A stretch of DNA of 64,000 nt from an uncultured Collinsella sp. (GCA_902493895.1 CABUQW010000003.1:13997-77996); one strand, 5' to 3'; positions 6,522-64,000 are shown, counted from the stretch's first letter. Numbers and translations: made by a program. The notes: generated from the letters alone by a model not told the origin.

Positions 6522-7364
6522 ATGTCCGCCCGTAAAGCTCGCACGGAGGCGGCTGCCGTTGGTACCGCCCCCGTTGACTCTGAGGAGAAGGACGTGAAGA
6601 TTCCCGTAGAGGCCGTCGACGATACCGAGGCCAACGAGGCCCCGGCCGCCGAGGCTGCCGAGAACCAGGTAGAGGATTCCAACAAGGAGGCGACGATGAC
6701 CGAGGACGAGATGGTGGAAGCCGCTATCCGCGCTGGTGAGGAAGCCGCCGACAACGACTTTAAGCTCAAGTTCGAGCAGGCCCAAAAGGAGCTTGCCGAC
6801 GTGCGTAACGAGCTCGATGCTGCGGCAGAGGCTCAGAAGGCCGCCGAGGATAAGGCAAAGGACGCCACGGAGCGTACCGCCCGTCTGCAGGCCGACTGGG
6901 AGAACTTCCGTCGCCGCACCGCCAATGAGCGTATCGCTGAGCGCGAGCGCGCGACCGAGAAGCTCGTCACTGCGCTGCTGCCGGTGGTCGACGATATCGA
7001 GCGTGCGATCGACCATGCCCGCAGCCAGGAGCTTGCCGACGACTTTAAGCAGTTCGTCGACGGCGTCGACGCGGTGCATGCCAAGCTGCTCGATGTGTTT
7101 GCGCACGAGGGCGTTGAGCCCATCGACCCCAAGGGCGAGGCGTTCGATCCGCTCGAGCACCAGGCTGTGGGTCGCGTCGAGGACGCATCGCAGTATGACG
7201 AGACCGTCAACGACGTGTACCAGAAGGGCTACCGCATGGCGGATCGCATCCTGCGTTCCGCGATGGTGACGGTGACCTACGGCGGCGAGAAGCGCCCCGC
7301 ACCGGAGCCCGAAGCGGCGCCCGAGGATGCTGCGGCCGATACGGCCGAGAGCACCGAGGAGTAA
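6522..7364 (+). CDS. grpE: Nucleotide exchange factor GrpE
   Basis: Starts 3 nt after dnaK. GrpE-like core (RLQADWENFRRRT, GYRMADRILRSAMV) with an acidic N-terminal extension. Confidence 0.9.
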   Translation: MSARKARTEAAAVGTAPVDSEEKDVKIPVEAVDDTEANEAPAAEAAENQVEDSNKEATMTEDEMVEAAIRAGEEAADNDFKLKFEQAQKELADVRNELDAAAEAQKAAEDKAKDATERTARLQADWENFRRRTANERIAERERATEKLVTALLPVVDDIERAIDHARSQELADDFKQFVDGVDAVHAKLLDVFAHEGVEPIDPKGEAFDPLEHQAVGRVEDASQYDETVNDVYQKGYRMADRILRSAMVTVTYGGEKRPAPEPEAAPEDAAADTAESTEE

Positions 7365-56095: not shown

Positions 56096-57034
56096 ATGGC
56101 ATCTCAAGTTGAGCTCACCCCATGCGGGGCTATGTTTGACATCTTTAAGCGCGCGGCGCATCTGAGCCATATCGAGCTGTGCGGCTTGGTGCTTTCGTCC
56201 CGTCCGCTCGCCGACGGCCGCAGCCCGCAGAGCCGAGCCGCCGATCGCTCTTGGGTTTCCCGCTTTATCGTTCGCGCGCCGGTCGGCACGCTTCAGCAGC
56301 GCTACTTTGCCGAATACGGTACCTCGGCTGCGCGCATTATGTCGCAACTGGCCCTGCGCCAGCGAAATCCCATGGACTCCACGGCTGTGATCAATATGGT
56401 GTGCGGTCCTGCAGGTGAACCGATGGTACGCGCGCTCGAAGAGTGCCACCAGGACACGAATCTCTATCGCAACGCGCTCGATCGCCTGTCCCAGGCGGCG
56501 GAACTCATGCCCGCCGAGCGCGCCGAGGCCGTGCTGGTGCTGTTTGTCGCCGTCGGTTGTTCGGCGGATGTGCGGTCCTCGGTGAACTATGCCATCGACT
56601 ACGCACACGCGACCTGTGGCGGAGGCACATCCACGCCGCGTTCGCTTGGCATGTCGCTGACTGCGGGCGAACGCGAACCCGCCCCGGCGCACCCCTTGGG
56701 CTTGCTGCGCGTGCAAAACAGTTTTGTCGTGAGCGCCCCGCGCTGGATTCAGCCGAGTGAGCAGGGTGTTGAGATTGGCGCGCTGGCCACTGGTGAGGGC
56801 GATATTACCGACGTCGGCGACGATGTCTCGGCCCGCCATGCCCATATCTGGTGCGATGCTCAAAATATCTGGCACGTCGAGGACTTGTCGTCCACCAACG
56901 GAACCGTGGTGGTAAACGGGGCCACGAGTGTGTGTATTCAAGTAGAGCCCGGCCGCTCCGCCCAGCTCAACCCCGGCGACGAGCTCAAACTCGGCGAATC
57001 CACCACCTACGCCATCCTCTTCGGTGCTCTCTAG
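56096..57034 (+). CDS. FHA-domain protein with an unrecognised ~200 aa N-terminal domain
   Basis: C-terminal FHA (SARHAHIW..WHVEDLSSTNGTVVNG). AAGGAGG lies upstream, and the gene starts 4 nt after the kinase stop. Confidence 0.8.
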   Translation: MASQVELTPCGAMFDIFKRAAHLSHIELCGLVLSSRPLADGRSPQSRAADRSWVSRFIVRAPVGTLQQRYFAEYGTSAARIMSQLALRQRNPMDSTAVINMVCGPAGEPMVRALEECHQDTNLYRNALDRLSQAAELMPAERAEAVLVLFVAVGCSADVRSSVNYAIDYAHATCGGGTSTPRSLGMSLTAGEREPAPAHPLGLLRVQNSFVVSAPRWIQPSEQGVEIGALATGEGDITDVGDDVSARHAHIWCDAQNIWHVEDLSSTNGTVVVNGATSVCIQVEPGRSAQLNPGDELKLGESTTYAILFGAL

Positions 57035-57353: not shown

Positions 57354-59006
57354 GTGGCGGGTAGATTGGGGCCTTCCTTGATTCGATGCGTTCTCTCGAG
57401 GTTCATCAGAGCAAAAGGGGCTTTCGTCTTCATTGCTATCACGGTGATTGGAACCGCTCTCTCCTATGCCATGCCATACGTGAACGGGAAATTCTTAGAT
57501 TTTCTTCTTGGTAACCGCAGCGAAAGAGACGCCGTACTCTTCGCGCTCCTGGTTGCGTCAATAGGAGTTTTCTCCACCCTCTTTACTTATTTTGCAGGAA
57601 CACTTTCCATTCGCATAACCACGAGACTTTCCTTTGATCTTCTCAGGGAGGCCGTCTTGCGTTTTGAAAGAGACGATTACTTGGTGAGTCGGACCATCGA
57701 TCCAGCCTATACAACGCAACGGATTATTTCCGACTCCAGCGTGGTCTCATCCTTCGTTTTGGCGAATTTTATCAGTGCGCCGCTGTCCATTGTAGCCATT
57801 CCCATCGTATTGCTTATCATATGGTCAATTGATTCAACTCTCGCGGTGTTTTCCATCATTCTCCTCATCGTGTATTTCTGTGTAATTACTGGGTTGAGGA
57901 AACTTTTGTATAGGGTCACGTATGAGAAGAAAGAGGCGGACAGCGCCTTTTACGCCGCAATTGCATCGCAGCTTAATCAGATTCTCAACATTCAACTGAC
58001 ATCTTCGTACGGCAAGAGCGAACAAGCGCTCGACGCTGGGTTTAAGAGCTATTTTCCCAAAGTTTTGCGCTCCGGAAAGCTATCATATTCTCTGACATCG
58101 CTCGATGGTCTTTTCGCAGCGTTGTTTCAAGCGGTGATACTTGTTGTTTCCGGAGTACGAATCATTAACGGAACTATGTCAATAGGCGAGTACACTATCA
58201 TCGGTACATACTTCGCGGTTCTCTTTAAGACTTTGAAAAGTATGATGTCATTGTTCAAATCCTATCAAGATGCCAAAGCATCATGGGATAGGACGGCTAT
58301 CGCGACGAGAGAAAAGGAGAGATCGGGGTGGAATCGGACCGATTTAGCTAAACTCGATGAAATAAATGACATTTCGGTATCTGATTTGGAATTCTCGGTT
58401 GCCCTTCCAGACGGATCTGTCCGAGAGGTCCTCGGCGGGTTTTCTTTCAAGTTTTCCGGTCCTGGTACATATTGCATAGTTGGGGAAAACGGAAGAGGCA
58501 AGACGTCACTTCTTTACTTGATGCTCGGGCTATACTCATCGAAAGGCAAAGTAAAATACAACGGTGTGCCAATCGAAGAATGCGACTTGGATTACATACG
58601 TGCGAGAGAGATATCGTGCTGCCCACAGTCGTGCTTCGCGCCGGACGAAACGGTGAAAGAGCTGTTAGAGTATTTCGACACGCCCTTTTCTTCCTATCAC
58701 CGGGGTGTAGATGGCCTACTTTCGCTGGAAAACAGCGTGAAGGAGTTGCTCGGGAAACGTTGCTCCGCGCTTTCGGGCGGTGAGCTGCGCCGAGTGTACT
58801 TATGGTCGGCGATTTCACGCAAGTCGTCAGTTTTGGTACTCGACGAGCCCACGACTGGGTTAGACGCTGTAAGCCGCGCCGAGCTTGCGGCCTATGTTAA
58901 GCGCAACAAGCAAAGCCAGCTGATCATCGTTGTCTCTCACGATGAAGAGATAGTCGGCGCGGTAGAAGGGGTAGTGGATTTAGACAGCATGTACCAGGGT
59001 AAATGA
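57354..59006 (+). CDS. ABC exporter, fused permease + ATPase (no recognisable peptidase domain)
   Basis: Low-GC ORF with an N-terminal 5-6 TM domain, then Walker A GENGRGKTS, signature LSGGE and Walker B VLVLDEPT. The start codon is uncertain. Confidence 0.8.
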   Translation: MAGRLGPSLIRCVLSRFIRAKGAFVFIAITVIGTALSYAMPYVNGKFLDFLLGNRSERDAVLFALLVASIGVFSTLFTYFAGTLSIRITTRLSFDLLREAVLRFERDDYLVSRTIDPAYTTQRIISDSSVVSSFVLANFISAPLSIVAIPIVLLIIWSIDSTLAVFSIILLIVYFCVITGLRKLLYRVTYEKKEADSAFYAAIASQLNQILNIQLTSSYGKSEQALDAGFKSYFPKVLRSGKLSYSLTSLDGLFAALFQAVILVVSGVRIINGTMSIGEYTIIGTYFAVLFKTLKSMMSLFKSYQDAKASWDRTAIATREKERSGWNRTDLAKLDEINDISVSDLEFSVALPDGSVREVLGGFSFKFSGPGTYCIVGENGRGKTSLLYLMLGLYSSKGKVKYNGVPIEECDLDYIRAREISCCPQSCFAPDETVKELLEYFDTPFSSYHRGVDGLLSLENSVKELLGKRCSALSGGELRRVYLWSAISRKSSVLVLDEPTTGLDAVSRAELAAYVKRNKQSQLIIVVSHDEEIVGAVEGVVDLDSMYQGK

Positions 59007-59690: not shown

Positions 59691-60992
59691 TGGGGGGTGC
59701 GGACAGAAAGTTGGACCGCGGGGCGGTCCGGACTGGAGGTTCGCATGTACAGCAGGGAGAAGGTCGAGCTCTTCCTCCTGGCGACGGAGGACGGCATGGG
59801 GCCGACCGCCGCCGCGGAGTTCGCGGGGGTCTCGGTGGGCGCGGCCAAGAAGTGGGCGACGGGGCGCCTCCCGCACAGCTACACCGGGGCGCGCTGTAGA
59901 ATCGGGGCGAGGAAACCGCCACGGAAGGAGGCCAGCTTGGGCCCCGACAAGTCGATCTACGCCCCGCCGGCGACCGGCCCGCTCGCCGGGCTCAACGAGG
60001 ACCAGATAGAGAACCTGCTGCTCAGGGCGGTGTTGGCCGACCTAAAAGCGGAAGGGTGGGACCCGGCTTCGATCTCGAACAGGAGCAAGTGCGAGCTCGG
60101 CGAGAGATTGAGGCGGGCGACCGCCCTGCCCCTCCGCTCGATCACAGGTTTCTTGAGGATATCGAAGAGCTCCTATGAGTACTGGAGGCCCCGCGTCGCC
60201 GCGCCGCGCGACCGCGACGCCGACATACGCGACCGCGTGGTGCGCATCTTCCGCGAGGGCTCGGGGTGCTGGGGGTACCGCACCGTCTGGGCGCGCCTGC
60301 GCCGCGAGGGCGTCCGGGCCAGCGAGAAGCGCGTGGCCCGCGTGATGCGCGAGGAGGGCCTCGAGGTCGTCTACAACAAGAGGCGCGCCCGGGGCTACAG
60401 CTCCTACGCCGGCGAGGTCTCCAAGGCGCCGGAGAACCTCGTGAACAGGAGGTTCCGCGCCGACGAGCCCAACCGGCTGTGGCTCACCGACATCACCGAG
60501 TTCAGGCTCCCGGGCGGCGAGAAGGTCTACCTGAGCCCGATCGTCGACTGCTTCGACGGGATGCCCGTCGCCTGGTCGATCGGGCTGCACCCCGACAAGC
60601 GCCTCGCGAACTCGAGCCTGCTCAAGGCCTGCGCGGCGAGGCCGGCGGGGGTGCGCACGACGATCCACTCGGACCGGGGCGGCCACTACCGCTGGCCGGA
60701 GTGGATCGGGATCTGCGAGGAGAACGGCCTGGTCAGGAGCATGTCCGCGAAGGGCTGCAGCCCGGACAACTCGGCCTGCGAGGGCTTCTTCGGGCGCCTC
60801 AAGAACGAGTTCTTCCACTACAGGGACTGGGAGGGCGTGACGGCCGAGGAGTTCATGGGAAGGCTCGAGGCCTACCTCGTGTACTATCGTGAGGAGCGGA
60901 TCAAGAAGTCCCTCGGGTGGCTGAGCCCGATGGAGTACCGCAGGAAGCTTGGATACGCCTAGGCGCGGTCCAAGAAATCGTCCGCACCCCCA
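59691..60992 (+). mobile_element. IS3-family insertion sequence (~1.3 kb)
   Basis: Imperfect terminal inverted repeats TGGGGG(G)TGCGGAC..TTGGACCGCG at both ends, with TG...CA termini. It is markedly GC-rich relative to its AT-rich flanks. I could not identify a target-site duplication. Confidence 0.8.
59745..60962 (+). CDS. IS3-family transposase (HTH + rve/DDE integrase core in one frame)
   Basis: rve-type core (WLTDITEF, SDRGGHY, CSPDNSACEGFFGRLKNE) and an N-terminal HTH region. ATG 59745 is preceded by GGAGG. Confidence 0.9.
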   Translation: MYSREKVELFLLATEDGMGPTAAAEFAGVSVGAAKKWATGRLPHSYTGARCRIGARKPPRKEASLGPDKSIYAPPATGPLAGLNEDQIENLLLRAVLADLKAEGWDPASISNRSKCELGERLRRATALPLRSITGFLRISKSSYEYWRPRVAAPRDRDADIRDRVVRIFREGSGCWGYRTVWARLRREGVRASEKRVARVMREEGLEVVYNKRRARGYSSYAGEVSKAPENLVNRRFRADEPNRLWLTDITEFRLPGGEKVYLSPIVDCFDGMPVAWSIGLHPDKRLANSSLLKACAARPAGVRTTIHSDRGGHYRWPEWIGICEENGLVRSMSAKGCSPDNSACEGFFGRLKNEFFHYRDWEGVTAEEFMGRLEAYLVYYREERIKKSLGWLSPMEYRRKLGYA

Positions 60993-61008: not shown

Positions 61009-61116
61009 CTATTTTCTCCGAAGAAAGAGTCGGATAATGAAGAATAGAATTAAAAAAGGTGCCAGATATAACGCAAGTATAAAGGCTAATCCAACGAGAC
61101 CTTGCAATAATGGCAT
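61009..61116 (-). CDS. Possible 35 aa hydrophobic peptide (MPLLQGLVGLAFILALYLAPFLILFFIIRLFLRRK)
   Basis: Own translation. ATG is preceded by GGGAGGAG. It has a single TM-like segment with a basic tail and lies downstream of the precursor genes. It is below the ORF-track cutoff. Confidence 0.35.
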   Translation of the reverse strand: MPLLQGLVGLAFILALYLAPFLILFFIIRLFLRRK

Positions 61117-61194
61117 AACTCCTCCCAGACACGAGATTTTGGTATTTGTTCCCATCTTATTCTGAATTGGACCAAATAGTTCCTAGCCACAAAA

Positions 61195-61374
61195 CTACTC
61201 GTCAACTGGATCGCACCAATCTGCTGGCAAAACACAGCTTGATTCTTTATCGACATAGCACCAATCCGCAACAGGGCACTCGGCGATGTCGTAAAAATTG
61301 CATATATCAACTCCAAGACAACAAGGCTCAACGGGAGGATGTTCATTTGAGCCAACAGGATGGATATGCTTCAT
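61195..61374 (-). CDS. RiPP precursor peptide A (59 aa): MKHIHPVGSNEHPPVEPCCLGVDICNFYDIAECPVADWCYVDKESSCVLPADWCDPVDE
   Basis: Own translation. ATG is preceded by AAGGTGAGGAG. It shares the MKHIHP N-terminus and the C.LG..DIC..YD block with peptide B and lies next to the rSAM/SPASM gene. It is not in the ORF track (under 60 aa), and the overlapping 89 aa track ORF is in another frame. Confidence 0.65.
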   Translation of the reverse strand: MKHIHPVGSNEHPPVEPCCLGVDICNFYDIAECPVADWCYVDKESSCVLPADWCDPVDE

Positions 61375-61404
61375 AACAGCTCCTCACCTTAATCCAATTA
61401 GAGA

Positions 61405-61608
61405 CTACGTTTGATCAATGCCACAGTGATCTACAACGCAGATGCTGCCGCCATCCATGTCATAGTCGCAGTAATCGTATGCACCACAGCCATCTGCTTT
61501 ATCATAAACAGTACAGATGTCAGTAATGCCCAAGAGGCAGTCAAAAGACATCGGCTTCACGCCTGCCTCGTCGCCACTTCCTGGATTAATCGGATGAATA
61601 TGCTTCAC
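61405..61608 (-). CDS. RiPP precursor peptide B (67 aa): (M)KHIHPINPGSGDEAGVKPMSFDCLLGITDICTVYDKADGCGAYDYCDYDMDGGSICVVDHCGIDQT
   Basis: GTG 61608 is preceded by AGGGAGG with 5 nt spacing. The track ORF (to 61656) is probably over-extended. Paralogous to peptide A. Confidence 0.65.
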   Translation of the reverse strand: MKHIHPINPGSGDEAGVKPMSFDCLLGITDICTVYDKADGCGAYDYCDYDMDGGSICVVDHCGIDQT

Positions 61609-61777
61609 GACTACCTCCCTTTGAGTGCAGAAAAACCTCAATATTGTGTATAACAAACCAAGATGTCTAGTTCACCATATTTCTAGAATGGTTTCGGCGA
61701 ACGTAGCAATAAGCTTTGCAGACGGTAATCAGAAGAACGAACACCTCCACAATGGTGACAGCAATGCGCTGAACCGC

Positions 61778-62353
61778 TTATTCCGATACAGTAGCTTCTC
61801 GTTGATTTTTCTCCTGCGAAGATGAGTGGCGGGAAATAAGGTCAAAAGCCATCTCGTAGCACATTTTTCTATATTCACATGATGCAGGGTGTAGACTCTT
61901 GGGCAAGTAGCCGTGCTCGTCTGCAGCCTCCCAGCTACAGCCCCCACCACAGAAAGACCGAGCCCAACAGTCCGTACAGTCAATTCTTTTTTCGACACCC
62001 TGACTCCAGTTTTCAATATACCTAGTTTCGTCAATTCCGGTGACGATGTTGCCCATTTTGAATCGCATCATCCCGACAAACCTGTGACAGGGGTATACGT
62101 CCCCTTCGGGAGTCACGGAAATAAAACGCCTGCCAGCCCCGCATCCGACAAAGGCGATCCTGTTGCTCATAATCAAATCAACTGCAGTTTTCAATGTTCT
62201 AAACAAGGGCTTTTCCCCTTGATCAATCTGTTTGAGATATTGATCCGCCAAATCTATTAGGCCCGCCCTGATTTTGTTTAATGAGTGTTCGTCGAGTTTG
62301 ATATTCTCATCGAATGAGCTCACGGGCGAGAAGTAAATCCTTCTGAAGCCCAT
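61778..62353 (-). CDS. C-terminal (SPASM) part of a radical-SAM peptide maturase, separated from the N-terminal part by an in-frame TAA
   Basis: CGAGRRFISVTPEGDVYPC and the CTDCWARSFCGGGC (Cx2Cx5Cx3C) SPASM motifs. It is in the same reading frame as 62357-63166. Confidence 0.8.
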   Translation of the reverse strand: MGFRRIYFSPVSSFDENIKLDEHSLNKIRAGLIDLADQYLKQIDQGEKPLFRTLKTAVDLIMSNRIAFVGCGAGRRFISVTPEGDVYPCHRFVGMMRFKMGNIVTGIDETRYIENWSQGVEKRIDCTDCWARSFCGGGCSWEAADEHGYLPKSLHPASCEYRKMCYEMAFDLISRHSSSQEKNQREATVSE

Positions 62354-62356
62354 CTC

Positions 62357-63166
62357 TTAAAACTGAAGATAGTCTTCAACAAGGTTACAGTTATTATTTG
62401 TTAAGGTCGCTCTTGCGCCGAAGGGGAACGACTCGGAAAAACGACGAACGTTTTTGTCGATATCGGAGAAAGAGCCGCCTCCCGTCTTGTACGGGCGCGA
62501 TGCATCGTGCTTGCATCCTGTACCATCGAGACTAATCAGAACAGAAAACCCGTGCTCCTTGAAAGAATTCACAGCAGTGTCATTCAAAAGCGTTCCGTTG
62601 GTCGTAATAGAATAGGTAAAGTTTCTATTGGGGTATATTCTTTTTGAATAGTCGACCGTTTTCCATATCAGCGGCTCGTTAATCATGGGTTCCCCACCAA
62701 AAAAGACGATCGCAAGCGTTTCGTTTTCCGATGAACTTGCGACGAGGTAGTCGACCGCCTTGAAGGCTATCTCGTCTGTCATCAGCAGAGGAGACGTTCC
62801 ATAATCTCCTTTACCGGCAAAACAGTAACTACAACCAAGGTTGCATGCATGTGAAACGTGGAGTTCGATGGATCTAAGTTTTCGAGGCGTGTCTTTTGTT
62901 AAGAAAGTCCGCTCAGACAATCGTTGATACTCATCAATGTCGTCTTCAAGTTCTGCTATGGTCGTTTGGTCGTAGCCTTTCGCAGCAAGTGACTTTGTTA
63001 GCAACTTCGAGTTGACCGTTCTTCCCGATGCTTCAAATATGCGAAGCGCATCTTCTGATGCTTGGTCAACCTGAAAGCAATTGCGAGTGACCTCATCGAA
63101 GCAGTAACGACGATCACTTACTGAGAAAAAATGCATACGTTCCTCAATTTCATGCTGGACTGGCAC
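62357..63166 (-). CDS. N-terminal part of a radical-SAM peptide maturase (RRE-like leader-binding region + CxxxCxxC core)
   Basis: HVSHACNLGCSYCFA (Cx3Cx2C) and a GGEP motif, with ~90 aa before the cluster as in RiPP rSAM enzymes. It ends ..VEDYLQF-TAA-E-MGFRR.., which continues in frame into 61778-62353. Confidence 0.8.
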   Translation of the reverse strand: MPVQHEIEERMHFFSVSDRRYCFDEVTRNCFQVDQASEDALRIFEASGRTVNSKLLTKSLAAKGYDQTTIAELEDDIDEYQRLSERTFLTKDTPRKLRSIELHVSHACNLGCSYCFAGKGDYGTSPLLMTDEIAFKAVDYLVASSSENETLAIVFFGGEPMINEPLIWKTVDYSKRIYPNRNFTYSITTNGTLLNDTAVNSFKEHGFSVLISLDGTGCKHDASRPYKTGGGSFSDIDKNVRRFSESFPFGARATLTNNNCNLVEDYLQF

Positions 63167-63652: not shown

Positions 63653-64000
63653 ATGCCGTTTGCTCTCACGCCCGCCTTAGTTCCAAGTCGGGCGAGCCGC
63701 CGCGCTCATGCGACCCGTGGCGGCGACACGTCGACGCCGCGCTCGCTGAGCACATCTTCGGTCGCGGGCGAGCACGAGGTCGCGCCGGCGCATCCGCTGG
63801 GACTGCTGTGCGTGCAAAACGGCTACGTGGTGAGCGTCCCGCGCTGGATTCAGCCGAGTGAGGAAGGCGTTGAGATCGGCGCGCTGGCAACGGGGGAGGG
63901 CGGCATCACCGACGACGTCGGCGACGATGTCTCGGCCCGCCATGCCCATATCTGGTGCGATGCTCAAAATATCTGGCACGTCGAGGACTTGTCGTCCACC
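63653..64000 (+). pseudogene. Truncated second copy of the FHA-protein gene 3' region (runs off the window)
   Basis: The frame translates to ..HATRGGDTSTPRSL..APAHPLGLLCVQNGYVVSVPRWIQPSEEGVEIGALATGEG..DVGDDVSARHAHIWCDAQNIWHVEDLSST, paralleling residues ~180-267 of the 56096-57034 product. The last 87 nt are identical to 56810-56896. The frame is closed upstream by TGA at 63617. Confidence 0.6.

What the first reader, a model, noticed from the sequence alone, without database searches (positions are those of the whole stretch)
61195..61608. Every Cys in both precursor cores is followed by Asp at +3 to +6 (Cx2-5D repeats), resembling a freyrasin-type Cys-Asp thioether code
Peptide A contains CLGVD, CNFYD, CPVAD, CYVD, CVLPAD and CDPVD. 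Peptide B contains CLLGITD, CTVYD, CGAYD, CDYD, CVVD and CGID. That gives six such units per peptide, with CxxxD the most frequent spacing. From memory, the ranthipeptide freyrasin (PapA/PapB, Paenibacillus) has six CX3D motifs that the rSAM enzyme PapB crosslinks from Cys sulfur to the Asp beta-carbon. The pattern here suggests an analogous multi-ring thioether peptide. It differs in having variable ring sizes, a very short leader (~17-22 aa) and an extremely acidic core.
Basis: partly seen in the sequence, partly recalled or inferred. Interest (0 to 1): 0.8.

Follow-up and report, generated by a model that had tools for sequence, protein, structure and literature searches.

The report
Collinsella Cys–Asp ranthipeptide precursor pair
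Two small genes of a human-gut Collinsella encode acidic peptides whose six cysteines are each paired with a conserved aspartate, most likely to be stapled into thioether rings by the neighbouring radical-SAM enzyme as in the known peptide freyrasin, although in this genome that enzyme gene carries a premature stop.

Summary
Two minus-strand ORFs (pepB 61608-61405, pepA 61374-61195) encode paralogous peptides with six C-x(2-5)-D units each.

They are real genes. They have Shine-Dalgarno sites, pN/pS of 0.10-0.24 against saturated synonymous change, and cores almost invariant in about 75 Collinsella loci. Across relatives down to about 30% identity, the only invariant core residues are Cys and their Asp partners.

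The upstream gene is a radical-SAM/SPASM maturase with an N-terminal peptide-recognition (RRE) fold. Its closest solved structure is CteB and its best NCBIfam model is PapB, but it is below every curated cutoff. It forms its own clade (200/200 bootstraps). It has Arg at the position of PapB Arg372, the proposed carboxylate binder, where SCIFF enzymes have Gln. The leader (MKHI...) is SCIFF-like and the core is freyrasin-like.

So the freyrasin-type Cys-Asp ranthipeptide reading is well supported by computation, as a new subfamily of a known class. The chemistry is untested.

Caveat for this window: the maturase has an in-frame TAA (Lys260 in 60/60 gap-free homologous loci) before the SPASM domain. 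An IS3 element sits beside the operon. This strain probably makes no mature product.

The parts
61405..61608 (-). pepB precursor gene (67 aa, GTG start). Leader MKHIHPINPGSGDEAGVKPMSFD. Core has six conserved Cys, each followed by a conserved Asp: CLLGITD, CTVYD, CGAYD, CDYD, CVVD, CGID.
   Evidence: SD GGGAGG lies at 61619-61614. The core is identical in 73 of 76 copies from other Collinsella-type loci, counting the one ending at CGID, with variation in the leader. pN/pS is 0.12-0.24.
61195..61374 (-). pepA precursor gene (59 aa, ATG start), a paralogue of pepB. Leader MKHIHPVGSNEHPPVEP. Core has six conserved Cys-Asp units: CLGVD, CNFYD, CPVAD, CYVD, CVLPAD, CDPVD. There is one extra non-conserved Cys (C18).
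   Evidence: pN/pS is 0.10-0.18 with synonymous sites saturated. The exact sequence is on at least 1000 public contigs, annotated 'hypothetical protein'.
62357..63136 (-). Maturase gene, N-terminal part. It holds the RRE-like domain (res 1-71) and the radical-SAM core with CNLGCSYC (C98/C102/C105). It ends at an in-frame TAA (62359-62357) where homologues have Lys260.
   Evidence: The exact 259-aa truncated product is found on 13 other contigs.
62357..62359 (-). Premature stop codon TAA in the maturase (AAA = Lys in 60 of 60 gap-free homologous loci).
61778..62356 (-). Maturase gene, C-terminal part in the same frame. It holds the bridging region and the SPASM domain with the seven auxiliary-cluster Cys (C332, C350, C387, C390, C396, C400, C420) and the invariant Arg352 (PCHRFVG).
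63126..63131 (-). T6 tract directly after the maturase ATG. T7 and T5 variants exist in other genomes.
61009..61155 (-). Small single-pass membrane ORF after pepA (48 aa). The conserved part runs from Met14, 61116-61009: MPLLQGLVGLAFILALYLAPFLILFFIIRLFLRRK. It is a possible immunity or accessory protein.
   Evidence: Positional and sequence counterparts occur in L003 and L084/85. It has no family hit.
57354..59006 (+). ABC half-transporter (transmembrane domain plus ATPase, 550 aa, no peptidase domain), convergent with the operon. It is the likely exporter.
   Evidence: An equivalent ABC gene is adjacent in all three orthologous clusters despite rearrangement.
59693..60991 (+). IS3-family insertion sequence (70% GC) with a 3-bp target duplication, inserted 17 bp downstream of the small membrane ORF. 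It is absent from other Collinsella loci.
61640..61669 (-). Promoter-like hexamer pair (TAGACA-18-AATATT) in the 170-bp gap between the maturase and pepB. This is a consensus match only.
   Evidence: 3 such sites found, 3.2 expected by chance, so weak.

Best explanation
**What it is.** The two ORFs are genuine, translated precursor genes of a RiPP operon. The gene order is maturase, pepB, pepA, small membrane protein, with a convergent ABC exporter. The operon lies on a roughly 6.6-kb low-GC island of a Collinsella (Coriobacteriaceae, human gut) genome.

**Proposed mechanism (inferred).**
1. The maturase's N-terminal RRE domain binds the SCIFF-like MKHI... leader.
2. Each core Cys thiolate binds auxiliary cluster 1.
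3. Arg352 holds the side-chain carboxylate of the Asp 3-6 residues downstream.
4. The 5'-deoxyadenosyl radical abstracts a beta-hydrogen of that Asp.
5. The carbon radical couples to the Cys sulfur.
6. Repeating this six times gives six small in-line thioether rings (2-5 residues between Cys and Asp) per peptide. The products are two hyper-acidic, freyrasin-like ranthipeptides, which the ABC transporter exports.

Leader removal and biological role are unknown.

**Shown here:** gene reality, operon structure, enzyme class and fold, conservation of the Cys/Asp pairs, and the Arg.

**Inferred:** the linkage chemistry, ring topology and export.

**In this window.** The maturase is cut by a nonsense codon (Lys260 to TAA) ahead of the SPASM domain. 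This strain is most likely a natural null that encodes the precursors but cannot cross-link them.
For: **Coding and selection**
- SD sites are present.
- pN/pS is 0.10-0.24, with Cys and Asp kept through TGT/TGC and GAT/GAC switches.
- Core changes occur in only 3 of 75 pepA and 3 of 76 pepB copies, against 17 and 9 with leader changes.

**Cys/Asp pairs**
- They are the only invariant core columns.
- The same six-unit plan occurs in 23 family peptides.
- Every family precursor whose surroundings were retrieved sits next to a same-type rSAM plus ABC genes.

**Enzyme**
- NCBIfam scores are PapB 272, SCIFF 266, nif11 259 and QhpD 240 bits.
- CteB is the best PDB match by sequence at 1.8e-64.
- The AF2 model has pLDDT 94.3 with a beta3-alpha3 N-terminal RRE. 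It matches CteB with TM 0.83-0.89.
- All ten cluster Cys are conserved, with nearly the same spacing as PapB C119/123/126, C352/370/421 and C408/411/417/440; two gaps differ by one residue. This places PapB Arg372 at Arg352.
- Arg is invariant in the family and in maturases beside distant CxnD precursors. 77 SCIFF-type enzymes have Gln.
- The Arg-type versus Gln-type split was recovered in 200/200 bootstraps.
- A bona fide PapB-family enzyme (P0071, 398 bits) sits by a CxxxD/E precursor. A SCIFF enzyme sits by a SCIFF precursor.

**PapB chemistry and tolerance** of n = 0-6 come from PMC9413430 and PMC12373016.

**Null allele**
- TAA here versus AAA in 60/60 gap-free homologous loci.
- The truncated product is seen on 13 other contigs.
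- PapB lacking auxiliary cluster 1 makes no cross-link (PMC10470005).
Against: - No chemistry was observed. The linkage position (C-beta versus C-alpha or other) and the pairing of each Cys with the nearest downstream Asp are inferred by analogy.
- The maturase is below the curated cutoff of every NCBIfam family and is not inside the PapB clade.
- The Arg372 equivalence rests on spacing from published Cys numbers, not on an alignment with the PapB sequence, which I could not obtain.
- Five of 23 distant family peptides have Asn instead of Asp at the second acceptor, so carboxylate recognition cannot be the whole rule.
- The shuffle test on the two peptides alone is only moderately significant.
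- No leader peptidase is in the island.
- In this window the maturase is interrupted.
Confidence: 0.7

Rival explanations
1. The locus is a decaying or switched-off copy. The chemistry above applies to the family, but nothing is matured in this genome because the maturase is a pseudogene. The precursor genes persist only because the inactivation is recent. This is compatible with the best explanation for the family. It is a rival only for function in this window.
For: - There is an in-frame TAA at Lys260, upstream of all auxiliary-cluster Cys.
- The same truncated product occurs on 13 other contigs.
- 13 of 73 full-length copies in other Collinsella genomes carry frameshifts.
- A 550-member cluster of truncated N-terminal fragments exists.
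- An IS3 insertion is adjacent.
- A PapB variant lacking auxiliary cluster 1 is inactive.
Against: - pepA, pepB, the membrane ORF and the ABC gene are all intact here.
- An ATG lies 4 nt after the stop (62353). Reinitiation and assembly of two half-enzymes cannot be excluded.
- A single-base assembly error in this record cannot be excluded, although the allele is seen elsewhere.
Confidence: 0.6
2. The maturase makes thioethers, but not in the simple Cys-to-nearest-Asp C-beta pattern. Alternatives are alpha-carbon (sactionine) links, links to the residue before Asp (often Tyr), nested topology, or fewer than six rings.
For: - Linkage assignment in this enzyme clade has been revised before (CteA Thr37 versus Thr34, C-alpha versus C-gamma; PMC8172795).
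- The enzyme is in none of the curated families.
- Tyr often precedes the Asp, and Asn replaces the second Asp in some relatives.
Against: - Only Asp and Cys are invariant. The residue before Asp varies (Y, V, A, T, I, L).
- The Arg372 equivalent is present.
- Sactisynthase models score far lower (RumMC 120 bits against a cutoff of 720).
- Repeated in-line units are unlike the hairpin layout of sactipeptides.
Confidence: 0.15
3. The peptides are Cys/Asp-rich metal-binding or disulfide peptides, and their conservation is unrelated to the radical-SAM enzyme.
For: Six Cys and many carboxylates could chelate metals or form three disulfides. There is no direct evidence for modification.
Against: - Strict co-localisation of every family precursor whose surroundings were retrieved with an RRE-containing rSAM/SPASM enzyme across distant taxa.
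- The leader/core pattern of variation.
- The host is an anaerobic cytoplasm.
Confidence: 0.04
4. The ORFs are chance reading frames, not genes.
For: They are short ORFs with no Pfam or NCBIfam hit.
Against: - pN/pS is 0.1-0.2 with saturated synonymous change.
- SD sites are present.
- Homologues exist across genera.
Confidence: 0.01

Closest known systems
[quoted passage not shown]
   Same: - Six Cys-x(n)-Asp units in line in an acidic core.
- A single rSAM/SPASM maturase with three [4Fe-4S] clusters.
- The PapB model is the best NCBIfam hit.
- The Arg372 equivalent is conserved.
- The unit C-x3-D-hydrophobic-C aligns with a PapB-family precursor.
- An ABC exporter is nearby.
   Different: - The maturase scores 272 bits against a cutoff of 340. 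It is about 30% identical to a bona fide PapB-family enzyme and lies in a separate clade.
- The leader is MKHI..., not the Asn-containing PapA type.
- Ring spacing is mixed (2-5) rather than uniform CX3D.
- There are two paralogous precursors per maturase.
- The host is an actinobacterial gut commensal.
SCIFF peptides and thermocellin (CteA/CteB; TIGR03973/TIGR03974, PF13165)
   Same: - Leader N-terminus MKHI(K/H)...
- Six conserved Cys in a core of about 45 residues.
- The maturase has the same domain order, and CteB is the closest solved structure.
   Different: - The core is unrelated (no SCIFF model hit).
- Acceptors are Asp rather than Thr.
- The maturase has Arg, not Gln, after the second AC1 cysteine.
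- It scores 266 bits against a cutoff of 425.
- It lies on the other side of a 200/200 bipartition.
QhpD/QhpC (quinohemoprotein amine dehydrogenase gamma subunit maturation)
   Same: - Cys to Asp/Glu methylene thioethers made by an rSAM/SPASM enzyme (PMC8172795).
- QhpD-like enzymes are the nearest (weakly supported) neighbours in the NJ tree and are also Arg-type.
   Different: - The substrate there is an enzyme subunit with a CTQ cofactor in a qhp operon. No such genes are present here.
- The score is 240 bits against a cutoff of 453.
Thuricin CD (two-peptide sactibiotic)
   Same: Two related precursors are encoded side by side and presumably act together.
   Different: - Thuricin CD has alpha-carbon links, a hairpin topology and two rSAM enzymes (PMC12093266, listed).
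- Here there is one maturase and in-line rings.

Membership tests
Ranthipeptides (radical non-alpha thioether RiPPs) | rSAM/SPASM maturase of the CteB/PapB/QhpD type with an N-terminal RRE | tested here: met
   All ten cluster Cys are present. The N-terminus has a beta3-alpha3 fold. TM to CteB is 0.83-0.89.
Ranthipeptides (radical non-alpha thioether RiPPs) | Short Cys-rich precursor with leader and core encoded next to the maturase | tested here: met
Ranthipeptides (radical non-alpha thioether RiPPs) | Thioether from Cys sulfur to a beta or gamma carbon | not testable with these tools
   This needs MS/MS and NMR of the modified peptide.
PapB/freyrasin family (NCBIfam NF047865) | Maturase scores above the curated cutoff (340 bits) | tested here: not met
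   The score is 272.1 bits. A true member in hand (P0071) scores 398 and falls in a different clade.
PapB/freyrasin family (NCBIfam NF047865) | Arg equivalent to PapB Arg372 (needed for activity; proposed carboxylate contact) | tested here: met
   Arg352 is two residues after the second AC1 Cys, the same offset as C370 to R372 in PapB. This was mapped by spacing, not by direct alignment.
PapB/freyrasin family (NCBIfam NF047865) | Six Cys-X3-Asp motifs in the core | tested here: inconclusive
   Six Cys-Xn-Asp units are present per peptide, but only 6 of 12 have n = 3 and the others have n = 2, 4 or 5. PapB accepts n = 0-6 in vitro.
PapB/freyrasin family (NCBIfam NF047865) | PapA-type leader (conserved Asn motif) | tested here: not met
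   The leader is MKHIHP.... A PapB-family precursor has MLDPINKSAKV.... Profile comparison aligns only a 7-residue core unit.
SCIFF (PF13165 / TIGR03973 precursors, TIGR03974 maturase) | Precursor matches the SCIFF model | tested here: not met
   There is no hit even at E = 10. Only the first 13 leader residues align with a real SCIFF peptide.
SCIFF (PF13165 / TIGR03973 precursors, TIGR03974 maturase) | Maturase above the curated cutoff (425 bits) | tested here: not met
   The score is 265.9 bits. The enzyme has Arg, not the Gln of 77 SCIFF-type enzymes.
QhpD (TIGR03906) | Maturase above the cutoff (453 bits) and a qhp operon context | tested here: not met
   The score is 240.3 bits. No dehydrogenase subunit genes are in the island.
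Sactipeptides | Sactisynthase-type maturase and hairpin donor/acceptor layout | tested here: not met
   Sactisynthase models score 64-120 bits against cutoffs of 625-720. Donors and acceptors alternate in line.

The most novel reading that the evidence does not exclude
**Possible new subclass.** This may be a very prevalent human-gut two-peptide ranthipeptide system. It would represent a distinct evolutionary hybrid: a SCIFF-type leader and RRE, with a Gln-to-Arg switch in the active site that retargets cross-linking to Asp. It would produce twelve-ring polycarboxylate peptides with a role not yet seen for RiPPs, such as cation binding or host or community signalling.

**Possible population-level on/off switching.** Production may be toggled within Collinsella populations by recurrent maturase inactivation. 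The routes seen are slippage in the T6 tract at the start codon, the Lys260 nonsense allele, and several frameshifts.
Probability: 0.2. Interest if true: 0.6.

Novelty: new member of a known kind. Interest (0 to 1): 0.4.

Why it matters
- **Prevalence.** If the prediction holds, one of the most common Collinsella loci in human gut metagenomes encodes a pair of six-ring thioether peptides. The exact peptide sequences are each on at least 1000 public contigs, and the maturase cluster has 4315 members. Their products and role are unknown, and public records call them only 'hypothetical protein' and 'radical SAM/SPASM domain-containing protein'.
- **Acceptor choice.** The family links the two best-studied ranthipeptide types (SCIFF leader, freyrasin core). 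It offers a simple sequence marker for acceptor choice: CHR versus CHQ after the second auxiliary-cluster cysteine.
- **Enzyme tool.** The maturase handles ring sizes of 2 to 5 residues between Cys and Asp in its native substrates. That is of practical interest, because PapB is being developed as a peptide-stapling tool.
- **Limits.** Thousands of such clusters have been predicted by genome mining, and the chemistry proposed here is not new.

Tried and rejected
- **PapB sequence.** The original PapB specificity paper could not be read by DOI or PMC id. The supplement of the ranthipeptide catalogue paper is not held. A direct PapB alignment, and a check of whether this family is already listed there, were therefore not possible. 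I used published PapB Cys numbering instead.
- **Text search.** A full-text search for the leader string 'MKHIK' returned only unrelated papers. A real SCIFF precursor was taken from a contig instead.
- **Literature.** Two papers holding both 'Collinsella' and 'ranthipeptide' were read. Neither links the two: one gives a general BGC screening remark, the other lists ranthipeptide BGCs in other taxa.
- **Missing precursors.** Contigs of three mid-distance maturases (P0015-P0017) begin just upstream of the enzyme. No precursor could be read beside it; the P0017 contig holds only a truncated family peptide about 4.5 kb downstream.
- **Peptide family scans.** Pfam and NCBIfam gave no meaningful hit. 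The results were Saposin A at E = 0.006, below its cutoff, and CefA at E = 0.13.
- **Other scans.** Rfam found nothing in the island. The 690-bp spacer between the ABC gene and the IS holds no convincing ORF.
- **Tree.** The first tree attempt timed out and was redone with a faster distance routine. Deep branching among Arg-type clades is unresolved, so no sister group is claimed.
- **Rejected readings.** Selenocysteine or stop-codon reassignment was rejected for the in-frame stop. The codon is TAA, and homologues have Lys.

Full report
**1. What is at the coordinates**

- The region 61195-61608 holds two minus-strand ORFs.
  - pepB, 61608-61405: GTG start, GGGAGG six bases upstream, 67 aa.
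  - pepA, 61374-61195: ATG start, GGTGAGGAG upstream, 59 aa.
- Every Cys has an Asp at +3 to +6. pepA has 7 Cys and pepB has 6. Both cores have net charge -9.
- Spacings are 6 CxxxD, 4 CxxD, 1 Cx4D and 1 Cx5D.
- Composition-preserving shuffles of each core reach the observed pattern in 0.6% (A) and 4.3% (B) of 100,000 trials. On these two sequences alone the pattern is suggestive, not overwhelming.

**2. Surroundings**

- The peptides lie in a 45% GC island, about 57.1-63.7 kb, inside a 62% GC genome.
- Directly upstream on the same strand is a radical-SAM/SPASM gene (63136-61778).
- Directly downstream is a 48-aa single-pass membrane ORF (61155-61009).
- Convergent with the operon is a 550-aa ABC half-transporter without a peptidase domain (57354-59006).
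- Between the membrane ORF and the ABC gene sits a 70% GC IS3 element (59693-60991). It has a 3-bp target duplication and is absent from homologous loci.
- The island is bracketed by direct repeats, 56602-56896 and 63703-64000. These are 3' parts of FHA-domain genes.

**3. Organism and spread**

- A scan of one genome per GTDB species returned 80 or more loci, almost all Collinsella or Coriobacteriaceae from the human gut. Their maturases are 95-100% identical to this one.
- The exact pepA and pepB sequences are each recorded on at least 1000 contigs. The maturase's 90% cluster has 4315 members.
- Public names are only 'hypothetical protein' and 'radical SAM/SPASM domain-containing protein'.
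- Diverged orthologous clusters exist.
  - The 73% and 67% (Collinsella intestinalis type) maturase relatives each have both peptides, the small membrane ORF and an adjacent ABC gene.
  - The 39% relative (Actinobacteria bacterium UBA7524) has a single precursor upstream of the maturase.

**4. Are the peptides real genes?**

- Between the three orthologous clusters, synonymous differences are saturated (0.9-1.05 per site). Non-synonymous differences are 0.11-0.24 per site, so pN/pS is 0.10-0.24.
- The Cys and Asp codons switch freely between TGT/TGC and GAT/GAC while the residues stay.
- Among about 75 copies from Collinsella loci, variation is concentrated in leader positions 8-14. Most cores are identical. 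This is the classical leader/core signature.

**5. Is the Cys-Asp pairing meaningful?**

- Seven paralogues and orthologues were aligned, down to 32% identity. After M1 and H3, the only invariant columns are Cys and the Asp that follows each of them (repeated).
- The extra first Cys of pepA ('CC') is Tyr in orthologues, so each peptide has six conserved Cys and six conserved Asp partners.
- An exhaustive profile search of 1.84 billion representatives found 36 hits. About 20 are further short peptides with an MKH[IF]K.LN-type leader and the same six C-x(1-4)-D units.
- Some have eight or eleven units. In five of 23 the second acceptor is Asn.
- Where contigs allow, each such peptide lies beside an rSAM/SPASM gene plus ABC genes, sometimes with a CPBP/Rce1-like protease.
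- No Pfam or NCBIfam model covers the peptides.

**6. The maturase**

- *Family scores.* The best NCBIfam models are listed below. All are below the curated cutoffs.

| NCBIfam model | Score (bits) | Curated cutoff (bits) |
|---|---|---|
| PapB | 272 | 340 |
| SCIFF maturase | 266 | 425 |
| nif11-type | 259 | 518.7 |
| QhpD | 240 | 453 |

- *Structure.*
  - The closest solved structure by sequence is CteB (1.8e-64).
  - An AlphaFold model from a 71-sequence alignment has pLDDT 94.3. It shows three strands and three helices at the N-terminus, the RRE arrangement.
  - The model matches CteB over its full length with TM 0.83-0.89.
- *Clusters.* All ten cluster cysteines are conserved.
- *Arg372 equivalence.*
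  - Published PapB numbering is RS C119/123/126, AC1 C352/370/421 and AC2 C408/411/417/440 (PMC10470005). The spacing is nearly the same as here (C98/102/105, C332/350/400, C387/390/396/420); two gaps differ by one residue.
  - PapB Arg372 is essential for activity and is proposed to contact the acceptor carboxylate (PMC9413430).
  - By spacing, it corresponds to Arg352 in the motif PCHRFVG.
- *Arg versus Gln.* Arg is invariant in the family and in the maturases next to distant CxnD precursors. 77 SCIFF-type enzymes, and CteB, have Gln.
- *Tree.* In a neighbour-joining tree with 200 bootstraps:
  - the Collinsella family is a clade in 200/200 replicates;
  - it never joins the PapB family;
  - the Arg-type versus Gln-type split is recovered in 200/200 replicates.
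- *Controls from data.*
  - A bona fide PapB-family enzyme (398 bits) sits by a CxxxD/E precursor with a different leader.
  - A SCIFF enzyme sits by MKHIKTLTGK...GGCGECQTSCQSACKTSCTVGNQKCENTENK.
- *Profile comparison.* The family aligns with the SCIFF peptide only in the leader, and with the PapB-family peptide only in one C-x3-D-x-C unit.
- The system therefore combines a SCIFF-like leader with a freyrasin-like core and an Arg-type enzyme.

**7. Mechanism proposed**

- The proposal is by analogy with PapB. That enzyme abstracts hydrogen from the carbon next to the side-chain carboxylate, and the Cys is bound to auxiliary cluster 1 (PMC12373016).
- The maturase would make six in-line S-C-beta(Asp) rings per peptide.
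- Mixed ring sizes are within PapB's demonstrated tolerance, n = 0-6.
- Export by the ABC transporter and a role for the small membrane protein are inferred from conserved adjacency.
- No leader peptidase was found in the island.
- The biological role is unknown.

**8. The state of this particular copy**

- The maturase reading frame contains TAA at 62359-62357. All 60 gap-free homologous loci have AAA (Lys260).
- The stop precedes every auxiliary-cluster cysteine. A PapB variant lacking auxiliary cluster 1 makes no cross-link.
- The exact 259-aa truncated product is on 13 other contigs, so the allele is real rather than a one-off error.
- Thirteen of 73 other full-length copies carry indels. 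Seven of these are in the T6 tract right after the start codon.
  - T7 shifts the start to an upstream ATG.
  - T5 leaves no start.
- Recurrent loss of the maturase while the precursors stay intact is unexplained.

**9. Verdict**

- Four corrections apply.
  - The system is not a PapB-family member but a separate subfamily.
  - The leader length is ordinary.
  - Variable spacing is not mechanistically new.
  - The copy in this window is probably inactive.
- The kind (Cys-Asp ranthipeptide) is known, so novelty is that of a new, uncharacterised member family. Its interest comes mainly from its prevalence in the human gut and from the CHR/CHQ marker.

Noticed in passing
window 62357-62359 (minus strand): There is an in-frame TAA in the maturase where 60 of 60 gap-free homologous loci have AAA (Lys260). 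The identical 259-aa truncated product is recorded on 13 other contigs. A 550-member cluster of other truncated N-terminal fragments also exists.
   Followed up: yes
window 63126-63131 (T6 tract), upstream ATG at 63153-63151: A homopolymer lies directly after the maturase start codon. Five other Collinsella loci have T7, which brings an upstream ATG into frame (MKLRNVCIFFSV...). Two have T5, which leaves no start codon. This could be slipped-strand on/off switching or assembly noise.
   Followed up: partly
window 59693-60991: An IS3-family element (70% GC, 421-aa transposase ORF) has a 3-bp target duplication. It is inserted 17 bp after the small membrane ORF and is absent from L001, L006 and L035.
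   Followed up: yes
window 56602-56896 and 63703-64000: Direct repeats bracket the 45% GC island. They are 78-100% identical, with the last 88 nt identical, and are spaced 7.1 kb apart. They are 3' portions of FHA-domain genes, which suggests the island sits between duplicated FHA gene segments.
   Followed up: partly
window 61009-61155; L003 10408-10581; L084 about 6990-7110: A small hydrophobic single-pass ORF with a basic tail is conserved in position and sequence after pepA in three orthologous clusters. It has no family hit and may be an immunity or accessory protein.
   Followed up: partly
proteins P0151, P0163, P0165, P0169 and L091 1653-1868: In distant family members the second acceptor position is Asn instead of Asp (CTRKN, CHISN, CYKNN, CRYVN). 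Either that ring is skipped or those enzymes also accept a carboxamide.
   Followed up: no
L091 254-4442; L093 993-4343: Groundwater and other metagenome contigs carry two precursor-maturase pairs of this family in tandem. L091 and L094 also carry a CPBP/Rce1-like membrane protease that the Collinsella island lacks.
   Followed up: partly
L089 6041-6298: A family precursor (MNHISAVGG...CDYDMDGG) is truncated or frameshifted next to a transposase gene. The same contig carries a second, unrelated rSAM/SPASM gene.
   Followed up: no
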